This document shows, one piece after another, positions 38,381 through 54,053 of a stretch of 64,000 nucleotides of DNA. A program made the position numbers and the translations under genes. Position 1 is the first letter of the stretch. Every line of letters starts with the position of its first letter. The stretch lies in IMG/VR virus record IMGVR_UViG_3300035698_009139, one strand, 5' to 3'. The notes beneath the pieces are model-generated. The model was not told the origin of the DNA. It saw only the letters and a program-made list of their open reading frames with translations, and did not search any database. Source of the DNA: a virus.

Positions 38381-38466
38381 TTCAACGTTGTAAGTGCTGT
38401 TCTAATAGGTAAGATACCGGGATACCGGTGATGGGGGTTCGATTCCCCCGGCGATGAAACGTTGAG
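38381..38466 (+). ncRNA. anticodon-less tRNA-like RNA
   Basis: D arm, CCGG-GATA-CCGG in place of the anticodon arm, GGGGG-TTCGATT-CCCCC T arm, TCAACGTT/AACGTTGA outer stem. Confidence 0.6.
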
Positions 38467-39250: not shown

Positions 39251-39321
39251 CGCGTTTTAGTCTAAGTTAGGGCAGCACCTGTACGGGTGCAGGTGCAGTA
39301 TCGAATCTGCGAACGCGGCCA
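39251..39321 (+). ncRNA. non-canonical tRNA-like RNA A (6-nt anticodon loop, TATCGAAT T loop)
   Basis: CGCGTTT/GAACGCG acceptor plus GCCA. Confidence 0.65.
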
Positions 39322-39475
39322 AAGGTTGGCGAGGTGAATGCGCCCATGATCTATATCACACCAGGGATCCTTAATGTGATGTTCGCCATGGTCTACGTAA
39401 GTGGAGGCATGTTTCACCGCTCCTGGGTTCGATCGCCAGGAGAGCAGGTTCGACTCCTGTCGCCCGCATTATTAT

Positions 39476-39547
39476 GCGAGTATCGTCTAAGTTAGGACGG
39501 CGTCCCTTTGAGGGCGTTATGGAGTATCGAATCTTCTACTCGCACCA
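39476..39547 (+). ncRNA. non-canonical tRNA-like RNA B (same class as 39251)
   Basis: GCGAGTA/TACTCGC acceptor plus ACCA; D and T loops identical to RNA A. Confidence 0.65.
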
Positions 39548-39620: not shown

Positions 39621-39708
39621 TCCTGTCGGGCTGGCTTGGTGAAGGCTACGGACTGTTAATCCGATGACACCTACGGGTGGTGAGGTTCGAATCCTCAGGC
39701 AGGAGCCA
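39621..39708 (+). tRNA. tRNA-Asn(GTT) with long variable arm
   Basis: CGGA-CTGTTAA-TCCG; CACC-TACG-GGTG variable arm; GCCA. Confidence 0.8.
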
Positions 39709-40784: not shown

Positions 40785-41800
40785 ATCGACAGACACAAAA
40801 CCGACTTTCCTTTGTCATGGACTTCGTAGTGAATGTACTGGATCCGTAACCAGATGTCTGTTAGAATCGGCAGTTTGCAGTCAGTCTGCCTCCTCTCACT
40901 AGCTTCGGCTTGAGGAAATCAAACACTGACCTGAGAGTAGTAATAGTAGAGTAATGGCGGTATGACGTCATTAGGATAACTGCAGCAATGCAGCCAAAGT
41001 TAGGACTTCACAGCCTAGCGCCAGAAATGGCCCTTTCATACAAGCTCAGATCTCCTGGCGACAGGTTATCACCGAAGGGTGGTAATAAGATCAGACAGTC
41101 AGCTGTGTGTCCGAAAGGATACTCCCCAGGCCATCCGGTGAGGGGGAAGCGGCCCGCAAGCTGCACCGCAGATGCAAACTGACCGAAGATTGATGATTAA
41201 TGAGTAGCCATAACAAGAGCACGAGCGATTTCAAGTAAGTGCAAGTGGCAGGACAATCGGTGATGGAATACCCCTTCTTAGGAATGTGGTGTTACTGATT
41301 CGAGAAGGACAGCGGAGTACCTGGGAGGGGAAAGGCAAGACGGTGTGTTGTATTTTGTCGGTAACAACCGGCGAAGCAACTGAGACAGCACATCGCAGTG
41401 ATTTCTAAGAAGCTCGTGGAGAGCATCTGCCTTTAGCAGAAGTGGTGGTTCGATCCTACCTCTTTATTTAAAACGCAAAGCCTGTCTCAGTACGTTGTTA
41501 AAGTCGTCTAATCCTAGAATCCTCGGATAATCTAGGTTGCGGATCCTCGCAAGGGAAAAGCAATTGATGGCCAGAAGGTCGGAAACTTCTAGCGGAGTTG
41601 TACTGCTCGCAAGGCAGACGGTTCGAAGGCTGTTGAGTAGCAACGTGCGATAAGTGAAATGCCACACTTTAAAAAAGGCGACGTTGTTCGCAGACTGCCC
41701 AGATCCTCGCGGAGGGGTAGTGGATAACCGGTTAACCTAGATTGCCAATTTAGGGTACGACTGAAGGTGCGGACGTGAAACGTGTAATCTCAGCGTTCTA
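40785..41800 (+). ncRNA. GOLLD-like giant structured RNA
   Basis: About 1 kb with no credible ORF; many GNRA/UUCG hairpins; ACTGAGACAG (41379) pairs CTGTCTCAGT (41482); AAAAAAGGC and terminal TAATCTCAG motifs recalled from GOLLD; lies among tRNAs. Confidence 0.7.
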
Positions 41801-42668: not shown

Positions 42669-42753
42669 GCGTCGGGAAAGTTAGTGGTTCTAGCACGAGG
42701 CCTGTAAAGCCTTTCTCTTCGGGGGAGAAGTTCGATTCTTCACCGGCGCACCA
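42669..42753 (+). tRNA. tRNA-Tyr(GTA)
   Basis: Type II variable arm, ACCA. Confidence 0.85.
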
Positions 42754-44623: not shown

Positions 44624-44716
44624 GGAAGGTGAACCAGCCAGGGGTTGGACCGGTCTTGAAAACCGTGGGAACCTGCGAGAGCAGGTTTGGGCTTCGAGTG
44701 CACCCGCCTTCCTCCA
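44624..44716 (+). tRNA. tRNA-Ser(TGA)
   Basis: Long variable arm, CCA. Confidence 0.85.
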
Positions 44717-46021: not shown

Positions 46022-46291
46022 ATGAGCACTCTGACCAAAAATTATGCTATCTTGGTTTCGTACCGGGACAACAGCTATCGCTGGAGCACAACTAGGTTTG
46101 AGGCGAGCGTCGCTGATGATTTCATCACTAGAGTGTTTGACTCACTTGTGCAGTTGCCAGATATCCGCGAGGTGAAAATCTTCGAGGTGGCCGCCCGCCC
46201 AATGTTTCACACACATGCAACATTTGAAGAAGATCTCACATCAGACGCAATGATGGAGAAATTAGAGATATTGAAAGGATCATTACAATGA
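46022..46291 (+). CDS. hypothetical protein
   Basis: GAGG RBS. Confidence 0.55.
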   Translation: MSTLTKNYAILVSYRDNSYRWSTTRFEASVADDFITRVFDSLVQLPDIREVKIFEVAARPMFHTHATFEEDLTSDAMMEKLEILKGSLQ

Positions 46292-46752
46292 ACGTCCACC
46301 AATTCTATTTCGTCAGAGATGATCTCGAGTCAATGAATCCCGGCAAGATGGCCGCACAGGTATCGCACGCCGCAGCTATGTTGGCTGAGCGTGGGCTGTG
46401 CTCAGGTAATTCTACGTTCTATGATTTATACAAGTCGTGGATGAATCAGACGACAGATAACTTCGGGGTCGCTCACACGAGGGCCGCTGATCCTCATGAT
46501 ATTTTTGACATGGGTGCTGATCTGGATGATGACTATGAATCCCAGTTGTCGGCGATCATCAACAATGCTACCTTAGAGGGAGCGGTACCTAACATTATTG
46601 ATGTTACTGTAACAGACCCGGAATATCCATTGAAAGATGGCCGCACGGTTCATCACTTTCCAATGCAGACTGTTCGGGCCGTGATGTTTGATGTAGACAA
46701 ACATCCTACACTCGGCGCCGCATTCCAGAAGATGTCCTACAGGCATCCATAA
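46288..46752 (+). CDS. peptidyl-tRNA hydrolase, Pth2 family
   Basis: VRDDLESMNPGKMAAQVSHAA; VTDP. Confidence 0.75.
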   Translation: MNVHQFYFVRDDLESMNPGKMAAQVSHAAAMLAERGLCSGNSTFYDLYKSWMNQTTDNFGVAHTRAADPHDIFDMGADLDDDYESQLSAIINNATLEGAVPNIIDVTVTDPEYPLKDGRTVHHFPMQTVRAVMFDVDKHPTLGAAFQKMSYRHP

Positions 46753-51943: not shown

Positions 51944-52021
51944 GGATAGGTAGTAGTGTTGGCTATACGAACGGTCTCTTAAACCGCCTAGGCGTGGGTT
52001 CGATTCCCACCCTATCCACCA
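51944..52021 (+). tRNA. tRNA-Lys(CTT)
   Basis: GGATAGG/CCTATCC, CTCTTAA loop, ACCA. Confidence 0.85.
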
Positions 52022-53528: not shown

Positions 53529-53972
53529 ATGTCGCTACATGGTAATGTGATTGATAGCTTCTCCGGCGAAAATCGCTTCCTGAGTAATTTTCAGCTGTGC
53601 AGCGTGACAATGGACGAGGAGTGGTATGGTTCTACTGAGCATGCATACCAGGCCGCGAAGACGCTGGACTTAAATAAACGAAAGATATTCCGCGGCTCTA
53701 CGTCTTGTGGAACCGCAAAACGATTAGGGCAAACTCTTGTGTTGCGTCCCGACTGGGAAGAGGTTAAAATACCTGTGATGAAAGGATTGCTCGACCAAAA
53801 GTTTTGCATCCCTATTCTCAGGGCGTGTCTGATGGAAACTGGCGATGCTACCCTGATTGAAGGCAACGGCTGGAATGACACATTCTGGGGCGTATGCAAA
53901 GGAAAAGGACACAATCACCTTGGCATCCTGTTGATGCAGGTGCGGGATGAAATTAGAAATATGGATGGTTAA
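53529..53972 (+). CDS. NADAR (YbiA-like) glycosidase/ADP-ribosylhydrolase
   Basis: FLSNF, TEHAYQAAK, KF, EGN.W.DTFWG, NHLG..LM.VR. Confidence 0.9.
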   Translation: MSLHGNVIDSFSGENRFLSNFQLCSVTMDEEWYGSTEHAYQAAKTLDLNKRKIFRGSTSCGTAKRLGQTLVLRPDWEEVKIPVMKGLLDQKFCIPILRACLMETGDATLIEGNGWNDTFWGVCKGKGHNHLGILLMQVRDEIRNMDG

Positions 53973-54053
53973 CTAGCCAGGGTGCTAGACCTGCCTGCTA
54001 AGCAGTGGGAGCCTCGGAAGAGGCTTGAGTTTCGAGTACTCAGCCATCCGCCA
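53963..54053 (+). tRNA. tRNA-Ser(GCT)
   Basis: Long variable arm, GCCA. Confidence 0.88.

What the first reader, a model, noticed from the sequence alone, without database searches (positions are those of the whole stretch)
39251..39547. Pair of CCA-ended tRNA-like RNAs sharing a non-canonical elbow and 6-nt anticodon loops
Seen: both have D arm GTCTAAGTTAGG (no GG in the loop), a 4-bp T stem with 8-nt loop TATCGAAT, a 7-bp acceptor and NCCA. Their stems differ in sequence yet remain paired. Anticodon loops are 6 nt: TGTACG (Tyr-like) and CTTTGA (Lys-like). Inference: shared loops on divergent stems define a functional class. Tyr and Lys tRNAs are frequent anticodon-nuclease targets, so these may be uncleavable decoys or special-purpose aminoacyl carriers.
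Basis: partly seen in the sequence, partly recalled or inferred. Interest (0 to 1): 0.7.

Follow-up and report, generated by a model that had tools for sequence, protein, structure and literature searches.

The report
Phage tRNA look-alikes that cannot decode
Two small genes in the tRNA block of an uncultured salt-lake T4-like phage encode tRNA-shaped, CCA-ended RNAs of a conserved phage family. The family keeps a re-wired tRNA "corner" but has lost the codon-reading loop, so these are selected tRNA mimics of unknown job, neither spare tyrosine/lysine tRNAs nor decayed genes.

Summary
E1 (39251-39321) and E2 (39476-39547) are cloverleaf RNAs with a 7-bp acceptor stem and NCCA. Both have the D arm GUCU-AAGUUA-GGRC, a 4-bp T stem, the 8-nt T loop UAUCGAAU and a 6-nt "anticodon" loop.

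They are not alone. Pattern scans followed by covariance models found eight more members in seven other phage or metagenome contigs, and none in 185,579 prokaryote genomes or among GenBank phages. Across the ten members:
- All four helices are kept by compensatory changes (98% of cells paired, 15 of 20 pairs changed on both sides).
- The D loop AAGUUA and the T loop UAUCRARU are invariant.
- The anticodon arm is capped by anything from a GAAA tetraloop to a 9-nt loop or a branched insert. None has a canonical loop.

The "Tyr-like/Lys-like" labels and the anticodon-nuclease link do not: the phage has its own canonical-loop tRNA-Tyr and covers all 20 amino acids without E1 and E2.

My best reading is non-decoding tRNA mimics that act through the acceptor, T arm and corner. 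The T loop carries an A inserted exactly between U54 and U55, the bond cut by Schlafen-type T-loop nucleases. A decoy role is an inference and is untested.

The scan had already noted one member (the L169 element) and many other anticodon-less phage tRNA mimics on other DNA.

The parts
39251..39321 (+). E1, tRNA-shaped RNA gene, 71 nt including CCA. Acceptor 39251-39257 with 39311-39317; D stem 39260-39263 with 39270-39273; anticodon-arm stem 39275-39279 with 39286-39290; T stem 39295-39298 with 39307-39310; discriminator G 39318; CCA 39319-39321.
   Evidence: Fold; segment table; covariance models R1-R3 at 75-91 bits.
39264..39269 (+). E1 D loop AAGUUA: 6 nt with a single G instead of G18G19. 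Invariant in all ten family members.
39280..39285 (+). E1 cap of the anticodon arm, UGUACG. It is 6 nt, or a GUAC tetraloop if U.G closes. Not a 7-nt anticodon loop.
   Evidence: In another sample a SNP at 39289 (G>T) breaks the C26-G39 pair of this arm.
39299..39306 (+). E1 T loop UAUCGAAU, 8 nt: a canonical UUCGAAU loop with an A inserted between U54 and U55.
   Evidence: The insertion reading comes from comparing L301a with the tRNA-Arg of phage Merlin.
39476..39547 (+). E2, paralogous tRNA-shaped RNA gene, 72 nt including CCA. Acceptor 39476-39482 with 39537-39543; D stem 39485-39488 with 39495-39498; anticodon-arm stem 39500-39505 with 39512-39517; T stem 39521-39524 with 39533-39536; discriminator A 39544; CCA 39545-39547.
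   Evidence: Fold; Rfam tRNA 27.7 bits, below threshold; R1 (built without E2) 42.4 bits; R2/R3 68-70 bits.
39489..39494 (+). E2 D loop AAGUUA.
39506..39511 (+). E2 cap of the anticodon arm, CUUUGA, 6 nt.
39525..39532 (+). E2 T loop UAUCGAAU.
39322..39475 (+). 154-nt spacer between E1 and E2. It can fold with a closing stem and two T-arm-like hairpins, and it also holds a 53-codon ORF (39334-39495) that runs into E2. Its status is unresolved and it is probably not part of the family unit.
   Evidence: Fold z = -2.35. The ORF has no homologue and is not itself on record as a called gene. No similarity to L150. No convincing common structure with the equally long L300 spacer.

Best explanation
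E1 and E2 are two diverged paralogues of a phage-restricted family of tRNA-shaped RNAs. The family keeps the acceptor stem (mostly with an encoded CCA), the D stem, the T stem and an anticodon-arm helix. It also keeps an invariant, re-wired corner: U8, the D loop A14-A15-G-U-U-A21 (two residues shorter than a normal loop, with one G left), U48, and a T loop with an extra A between U54 and U55 (UAUCRARU), closed by G53-C61. It does not keep an anticodon loop. What is shown: the family exists, its helices covary, its corner is invariant, its anticodon cap is free to vary, it lies in or beside phage tRNA arrays, and it is absent from cellular genomes. What is inferred: the RNAs are transcribed with the tRNA array and matured by the tRNA pathway (RNase P, 3' trimming or CCA), they cannot decode, and they work through the acceptor/T-arm/corner half of the L shape. 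The mechanism I consider most likely (about one chance in three on its own) is a tRNA mimic that occupies a factor recognising tRNA by shape and CCA end, without being consumed. Candidate factors are a host tRNA-directed immune effector or a T-loop enzyme. The inserted A removes the U54-U55 step that Schlafen-type T-loop nucleases need, and that TrmA and TruB probably need as well.
For: Ten members in eight contigs. All have 7/7 acceptor pairs except L368 with 6/7; D stems are 3-4 of 4 pairs in the eight members tabulated (weaker in L373, two pairs by my reading); T stems are fully paired, L373's around one bulged A. Covariation on the 8-member alignment A9: 98.1% of cells paired against 63% in shuffles and 37-54% with slid partners; all 7 acceptor pairs and 15 of 20 pairs changed on both sides (5-member version). 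The models separate the family from ordinary tRNAs: with R2, its five seed members score 68-84 bits against <=38 bits for about 110 phage tRNAs; with R3, built from eight members, further members score 38-47 bits and ordinary tRNAs <=34. Anticodon caps are UGUACG, CUUUGA, (A)CUUCAAA(G), GAAA, CUUGAAUAA, AGAAUA, an irregular ACCA-capped arm, AUUAA, UAACCAU (no U33) and a branched insert. The scan gaps would have admitted a canonical 17-nt arm. All 32 ordinary tRNAs of the window have UUC T loops; 31 of the 32 listed calls end in CCA (the exception is a doubtful relaxed-threshold Gln call), and those examined have 7-nt anticodon loops. The array covers 20 amino acids without E1 and E2. No + strand promoter or terminator flanks E1 or E2, and members sit 2-13 nt from neighbouring tRNAs. 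No member was found in 185,579 prokaryote genomes. L301a shares its acceptor and T stem with the T4-type tRNA-Arg(UCU) of phage Merlin, and the T loop differs by one inserted A, UUCAAAU to UAUCAAAU. Literature: CbCash cuts tRNA 5' of U55 and single U54 or U55 changes abolish cutting (PMC13462974); Cas12a3 recognises the acceptor stem, T arm and CCA and does not need the tRNA loops (PMC12851939).
Against: There is no expression, processing, charging or binding data. No partner protein was identified, and the genes next to members differ between phages. Members were first picked by the two loop motifs, so invariance of those motifs is partly by construction; the cloverleaf around them and the odd caps are not. 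If L150e's A.G closure is tolerated, it has a textbook-looking loop, CU-UCA-AA, so one member might be an opal suppressor. A decoy that resists one nuclease family is a story fitted to one insertion, and the same insertion could serve some other recognition.
Confidence: 0.55

Rival explanations
1. Processing or punctuation elements. The tRNA shape only recruits RNase P and the 3' maturation enzymes, which cut the long array transcript and set the ends, and so the stability, of neighbouring mRNAs. The free RNA has no job of its own.
For: Several members sit directly upstream of an ORF: L300b 30 nt before a 669-aa gene, L138e and L169e about 60-75 nt before ORFs, and E1 43 nt after the DUF3850 gene. 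An anticodon loop is dispensable for RNase P (established knowledge).
Against: A canonical corner would serve RNase P at least as well, yet an unusual 14-nt corner is invariant across very different phages. Other members lie between tRNAs with no ORF to punctuate (L150e, L301a, L368). The anticodon-arm helix is kept by covariation although processing does not need it.
Confidence: 0.15
2. Special-purpose aminoacyl (or peptidyl) carriers. They are charged at the CCA end by a synthetase that ignores the anticodon and used outside the ribosome, possibly linked to the phage PTH2-like hydrolase.
For: Eight of the nine members whose 3' flank I read encode CCA on an intact 7-bp acceptor stem (6 of 7 pairs in L368); L169e does not. 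The Levitt pair is A15-U48 and nine of ten members have A73 or U73. A PTH2-like ORF lies in the same array at 46288-46752. Earlier scan notes report anticodon-less mimics next to PTH2 genes in other phages (unchecked leads).
Against: The acceptor stems share no identity element: the first three pairs all vary, none has G3.U70, most have no long variable arm, and none has G-1. PTH2 lies 6.7 kb away and is not adjacent to E1 or E2. L169e has no encoded CCA.
Confidence: 0.12
3. Unusual decoders: suppressor, frameshifting or doublet/quadruplet-reading tRNAs whose odd loops are functional. This includes the first reader's Tyr/Lys reading.
For: Four members start the loop with C-U-U/G. L150e could read UGA (loop CUUCAAA), and its phage also has a tRNA(CUA). 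The window's array lacks tRNA-Lys(UUU).
Against: Loop length ranges from 4 to 9 nt or more and includes a GNRA tetraloop. The only 7-nt loop closed by a Watson-Crick pair lacks U33. tRNA-Tyr and tRNA-Lys(CUU) are present. As I recall from published loop-size studies, 6-nt loops are inactive in decoding (own knowledge, not checked here).
Confidence: 0.08
4. Decaying pseudo-tRNAs, or an assembly artefact.
For: Phage arrays do hold degenerate tRNA copies. One SNP in another sample breaks an E1 anticodon-stem pair.
Against: The corner sequence is identical in ten genes whose stems have diverged completely but still pair at 98%. A run from another study (X2) carries the same sequence across E1 and most of E2; X3 covers only the spacer. 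Decay would not preserve 14 loop positions while changing both sides of 15 pairs.
Confidence: 0.04

Closest known systems
Canonical elongator tRNA (Rfam RF00005), including phage tRNA clusters
   Same: Cloverleaf with a 7-bp acceptor stem, U8, A14, A21, a Levitt-type 15-48 pair, the G53-C61 closing pair, C56, R57, A58, a discriminator and CCA. It is encoded inside a phage tRNA array.
   Different: There is no 7-nt anticodon loop with U33 and R37. The D loop has 6 nt with one G instead of G18G19. The T loop has 8 nt with an A between U54 and U55. Five members have a 4-bp T stem, giving a 7/4 branch. Scores fall below the Rfam and ARAGORN default thresholds.
Phage tRNAs that escape anticodon nucleases (T5 tRNA-Lys against PARIS, T5 tRNA-Tyr against Retron-Eco7, mycobacteriophage tRNAs; PMC11464382, 10.1101/2023.03.15.532788, PMC10264068)
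   Same: Phage-encoded and located in tRNA arrays, with sequence changes at sites that host tRNases need.
   Different: Those are working decoders with point changes in a 7-nt loop. In this family the loop itself is dispensable, and the conserved change is in the corner, not in the anticodon loop.
T4 stable RNAs species 1 and 2 (rnaC, rnaD)
   Same: Small RNAs of unknown function encoded in the tRNA cluster of a T4-type phage, with tRNA-like 3' parts.
   Different: They are 139 and 119 nt, not cloverleaves, and have a canonical T arm. The family model R3 does not match them even with filters off.
YrlA/YrlB bacterial and phage Y RNAs (Rfam RF02553; PMC4201824)
   Same: Non-decoding tRNA mimicry of the acceptor, T and D parts.
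   Different: Y RNAs are permuted: their ends lie on the 'anticodon' side, with a Ro60-binding stem and a sealed acceptor. E1 and E2 have normal tRNA topology with a free NCCA end.
Non-canonical cloverleaf tRNAs (8/4 and 9/3 allo-tRNAs, PMC5389517; tRNA-Pyl and mitochondrial compact-core tRNAs, own knowledge)
   Same: A shortened T stem or small D loops without GG; a 6-bp anticodon stem and a 3-nt variable loop in E2; some are phage-encoded.
   Different: Those keep a 12-bp acceptor/T branch and a normal anticodon loop, and they decode.

Membership tests
Canonical tRNA (RF00005) | Score at or above Rfam's gathering threshold (29 bits), or detection by ARAGORN at default settings | tested here: not met
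   E2 scores 27.7 bits and E1 has no hit at E<=10. ARAGORN at default settings lists neither.
Canonical tRNA (RF00005) | 7-nt anticodon loop with U33 and a purine at 37, closed by a 5-bp stem | tested here: not met
   E1 and E2 have 6-nt loops. None of the ten family members meets this.
Canonical tRNA (RF00005) | Corner contacts G18-U55 and G19-C56, and T54-A58 in a 7-nt T loop | tested here: not met
   The D loop AAGUUA has one G. The T loop is the 8-nt UAUCGAAU.
Canonical tRNA (RF00005) | 7-bp acceptor stem, discriminator and CCA end; four-arm cloverleaf | tested here: met
Nuclease-evading phage decoder tRNAs (T5 tRNA-Lys/Tyr type) | An anticodon of the targeted isoacceptor in a functional 7-nt loop with escape substitutions | tested here: not met
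   The loops are 6 nt and are not conserved among homologues. A canonical-loop tRNA-Tyr is present elsewhere in the array.
YrlA-type Y RNA | Permuted tRNA-like domain with a sealed acceptor end and a Ro60-binding stem | tested here: not met
   Topology is normal and the 3' NCCA end is free. Rfam gives no Y RNA hit.
tmRNA tRNA-like domain | G3.U70 alanine identity, no anticodon arm, mRNA-like domain | tested here: not met
   Pair 3-70 is C-G in E1 and G-C in E2. The only hit, tmRNA_permuted, scores 13.8 bits against a threshold of 47.
T4 rnaC/rnaD stable RNAs | Sequence and structure homology to T4 species 1 or 2 RNA | tested here: not met
   R3 with filters off on T4 69000-74000 matches only the eight tRNAs.
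AAGUUA/UAUCRARU-corner tRNA mimic family (defined here) | D loop AAGUUA, 8-nt T loop UAUCRARU closed by G-C, 7-bp acceptor stem, non-canonical cap on a paired anticodon arm | tested here: met
   E1 and E2 score 68-80 bits with R2 and R3. Segment table.
Functional decoy or sponge for tRNA-directed effectors | Binds the effector and is not cleaved or modified; protects phage translation | not testable with these tools
   The only support is positional: the inserted A lies at the U54|U55 bond that CbCash cuts (PMC13462974).

The most novel reading that the evidence does not exclude
An RNA-based anti-defence class. Phages would make nuclease-proof tRNA dummies whose corner is altered exactly at the bond that T-loop tRNases cut. 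Their shape and CCA end would still attract shape-reading immune effectors (Schlafen/Cash-type T-loop nucleases, Cas12a3-type tail cutters, tail-modifying toxins) and so shield the real tRNA pool.
Probability: 0.2. Interest if true: 0.85.

Novelty: new variant of a known kind. Interest (0 to 1): 0.62.

Why it matters
tRNA has become a main battlefield between bacteria and phages. Published counter-measures are working phage tRNAs with altered anticodon loops, or repair enzymes. This family is different: it is conserved, restricted to phages, and discards decoding altogether, while holding an unusual tRNA corner fixed. Two consequences follow. First, standard tRNA finders miss these genes or mislabel them, and calling them 'Tyr' or 'Lys' would be wrong. 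Second, the family offers a defined RNA for asking which tRNA-binding machines read only the top half of the L shape, and whether phages use RNA dummies against tRNA-directed immunity. I found no paper describing it in the searches I ran.

Tried and rejected
- GenBank phages: megablast and blastn with the region, E2, L169e, L301a and the L300 pair gave no family member. The only hit was the ordinary tRNA-Arg of phage Merlin.
- Prokaryote genomes: two pattern scans produced 0 and 48 stretches, and none of the 48 is a cloverleaf.
- 68 IMG/VR loci anchored on the phage-type tRNA-Gly(UCC) held no member.
- First strict viral scans: 0 hits, then 88 chance hits.
- Expression: no RNA holder listed. 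Contigs of three salt-lake DNA runs show only one SNP.
- The 53-aa ORF 39334-39495 has no homologue.
- The spacer's 'tRNA-Ser(cga)' call from relaxed ARAGORN has two acceptor mismatches, so I rejected it.
- The tmRNA_permuted hit, 13.8 bits against a threshold of 47, was rejected.
- The spacers of the window pair and the L300 pair have equal length but no convincing common structure.
- Genes flanking members share no Pfam family.
- T4 rnaC and rnaD are not related by the family model.
- No + strand promoter or terminator lies next to E1 or E2.

Full report
**Context**

The window is part of an uncultured T4-like myovirus. Its family-B DNA polymerase is 46% identical to those of cyanomyoviruses. 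GC content is about 47%, and the stretch is held by salt-lake metagenome runs. From about 38.7 to 54.1 kb it carries a large tRNA array. ARAGORN at default settings finds 25 tRNAs and Rfam finds 25 tRNA hits plus a GOLLD RNA. Relaxed ARAGORN adds Tyr, Ser, Asp, Leu and others, so all 20 amino acids are covered. In my listing of 32 ordinary tRNA calls, every one has a UUC-type T loop and all but one doubtful relaxed-threshold Gln call end in CCA.

**The observation**

E1 is 39251-39321 and E2 is 39476-39547, both on the + strand.
- Both fold as cloverleaves with a 7-bp acceptor stem, U8, a 4-bp D stem (GUCU/GGRC), a 6-nt D loop AAGUUA, a 5-6 bp anticodon-arm stem, a 6-nt cap, a 3-4 nt variable region ending in U, a 4-bp T stem, an 8-nt T loop UAUCGAAU, a discriminator (G or A) and CCA.
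- The two shared 12-mers each occur exactly twice in the 64-kb window.
- Six of seven acceptor pairs, three of five anticodon-stem pairs and one T-stem pair differ between E1 and E2, yet all pair.
- Standard tools do not accept them as tRNAs. Relaxed ARAGORN reports two-base 'anticodons'.
- X2, a run from another study, carries E1 and most of E2, both 6-nt loops included, with a single SNP at 39289 that breaks the C26-G39 pair of E1's anticodon stem. X3 covers only 39290-39476, essentially the spacer. The 6-nt loops are therefore not assembly errors.

**Homologues**

I therefore scanned public collections for the two loop motifs with a variable gap and filtered the hits for cloverleaves.
- The first five members (E1, E2, L150e, L138e, L169e) gave models R1 and R2.
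  - L150:635-706 comes from a syntenic array that starts Gly(UCC)-Met as the window's does.
  - L138:23-100 is a further member from the metagenome scan.
  - L169:9453-9520(-) lies directly after tRNA-Met in a complete 182-kb phage.
  - Sources.
- R1 was built from E1 and L150e only. It recovers L169e (50.5 bits), E2 (42.4) and L138e (31.7).
- R2 gives its five seed members 68-84 bits and about 110 ordinary phage tRNAs at most 38 bits.
- Relaxing the T-loop motif added a second sub-group with T loop UAUCAARU and a 5-bp T stem: two copies in a 204-kb phage (L300a, L300b), one in L301, one in L373 and one in L368.
- No member was found in one genome each of 185,579 prokaryote species or in 50,697 GenBank phage records by BLAST.

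**What is conserved and what is not**

- On the model-fitted 8-member alignment, 98.1% of pair cells are standard pairs, against 63% in column shuffles and 37-54% when partners are slid by 1-3 columns. All seven acceptor pairs, and 15 of 20 pairs overall, show changes on both sides. The alignment was fitted to the structure, which favours it. The slid-partner control and my independent segment table (7/7 acceptor pairs, 3-4 of 4 D pairs and 4/4 or 5/5 T pairs in the eight members listed there) agree with it.
- U8, the D loop AAGUUA, U48, the closing pair G53-C61 and the T loop UAUC-R-A-R-U are invariant. The members were selected by these motifs, so that invariance is partly by construction.
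- The cap of the anticodon arm is the free part: UGUACG, CUUUGA, CUUCAAA closed by A.G (or UUCAAA with a bulge), GAAA, CUUGAAUAA, AGAAUA, an ACCA-capped irregular arm, AUUAA, UAACCAU without U33, and a branched insert.
- The scan gaps of 24-38 and 24-54 nt include the 30 nt that a canonical arm would give, so canonical loops were not excluded by design.

**Reading the corner**

L301a has nearly the same acceptor and T stems as the T4-type tRNA-Arg(UCU) of Citrobacter phage Merlin. Its T loop differs by one inserted A: UUCAAAU becomes UAUCAAAU. The family T loop is therefore U54, an extra A, then U55-C56-R57-A58-R59-U60. The D loops of the window's own tRNA-Glu genes (AAUGGUUA, AGUGGCUA on GUUU or GUCU stems) suggest that AAGUUA is a normal loop that has lost two residues, including one of the two Gs. 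This last point is inference.

**What it is**

- E1 and E2 are not spare Tyr and Lys tRNAs. The loops are not conserved, a tRNA-Tyr with the normal loop CUGUAAA lies at 42669-42753, and tRNA-Lys(CUU) lies at 51944.
- They are not decaying copies, because 14 loop positions are fixed while the stems have turned over with compensation.
- They sit among tRNA genes with tRNA-like spacing and without their own promoter or terminator signals. I therefore infer co-transcription and tRNA-type maturation.
- The retained parts are those read by enzymes that ignore the anticodon: the acceptor stem, the CCA end, the T arm, the corner and the arm helices.

**Mechanism (inferred)**

Recent papers show bacterial immune nucleases that read tRNA by shape rather than by anticodon.
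- The Schlafen-type CbCash cuts the T loop 5' of U55, and a change at U54 or U55 stops it (PMC13462974).
- Cas12a3 grips the acceptor stem, T arm and CCA and cuts the tail. Removing the tRNA loops does not prevent cutting (PMC12851939).

The family's one structural novelty in the T loop lies exactly at the U54|U55 step. A dummy that still looks like tRNA to such effectors but is a poor substrate is therefore my preferred model, at roughly one chance in three. Processing punctuation, non-ribosomal aminoacyl carriage and odd decoding are the rivals.

**Comparison with known families**

- Closest in form is canonical tRNA, but three defining features fail: the score thresholds, the anticodon loop and the corner.
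- T4 rnaC and rnaD are not related by model search.
- Y RNAs are permuted, and tmRNA features are absent.
- 8/4 and 9/3 allo-tRNAs and tRNA-Pyl-like compact tRNAs decode (PMC5389517; own knowledge).
- I found no description of this family in five literature searches.

**Earlier notes of this scan**

Earlier notes had already flagged the L169 element and many other anticodon-less phage tRNA mimics on other DNA. They are unchecked leads. I re-derived L169e independently through the pattern scan.

**Verdict**

It is a real, conserved and apparently undescribed phage family of non-decoding tRNA mimics. The function is untested.

Noticed in passing
window 39621-39708 (+): A tRNA with anticodon GUU (Asn) is 88 nt long and has a long, type-II-like variable arm, which is unusual for Asn. 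The nearest DNA matches are features annotated 'tRNA-OTHER | tRNA-Asn' in Rhizobium phages B1VFA and V1VFA-S.
   Followed up: no
window 38381-38460 (+): Another tRNA-shaped element upstream of the array. Its anticodon arm is ACCGG-GAUA-CCGGU (tetraloop), its T arm is canonical (GGGGG-UUCGAUU-CCCCC) and no CCA is encoded. It is a different type from E1 and E2.
   Followed up: partly
L150 396-465 and 559-632 (+): The syntenic metagenome phage has two further odd tRNA-like genes flanking its tRNA-Met. One has an AUUA tetraloop cap, D loop AAAGUA, a 9-nt T loop and CCA (27 bits with R1). The other has D loop AACAGUA, a 5-nt cap and T loop GUCAUCU.
   Followed up: partly
L150 12091-12164 (+): ARAGORN calls a tRNA with anticodon CUA (amber suppressor type, labelled 'Pyl'). 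The same phage's family member L150e could present UCA.
   Followed up: no
window 41340-41796 (+): A GOLLD RNA (Rfam RF02032, 163 bits) lies inside the tRNA array.
   Followed up: no
window 46288-46752 (+): A PTH2-like (peptidyl-tRNA hydrolase 2) ORF lies in the array, directly before tRNA-Glu(CUC). The array also holds two metallophosphatases, an HD-domain ORF and an HNH endonuclease, and a PNKP-type phosphatase lies further downstream.
   Followed up: no
window 44624-44716 and 53963-54053 (+): As drawn by ARAGORN, the tRNA-Ser genes have an 8-bp acceptor stem, and tRNA-Tyr (42669-42753) has a 4-bp T stem. This recalls the phage 8/4 tRNAs of PMC5389517.
   Followed up: no
L300 10677-10977 (-) against window 39251-39547: The two family copies in the 204-kb phage are 226 nt apart start to start, and E1 and E2 are 225 nt apart. 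Both spacers are about 152-154 nt and can close with a long stem, but they show no convincing homology.
   Followed up: partly
window 39289: The only variant found in 621 nt across the three salt-lake runs laid on it (the third covers only 39290-39476) is G>T at 39289. It unpairs C26-G39 in E1's anticodon arm. It rests on one contig at depth about 5.
   Followed up: partly
L169 9524-9595 (-): The tRNA-Met just before L169e itself has a non-canonical T loop (..CCUAGG-GCAUCC-CUAGG..). An earlier scan note says many tRNAs of that phage have re-wired corners.
   Followed up: no
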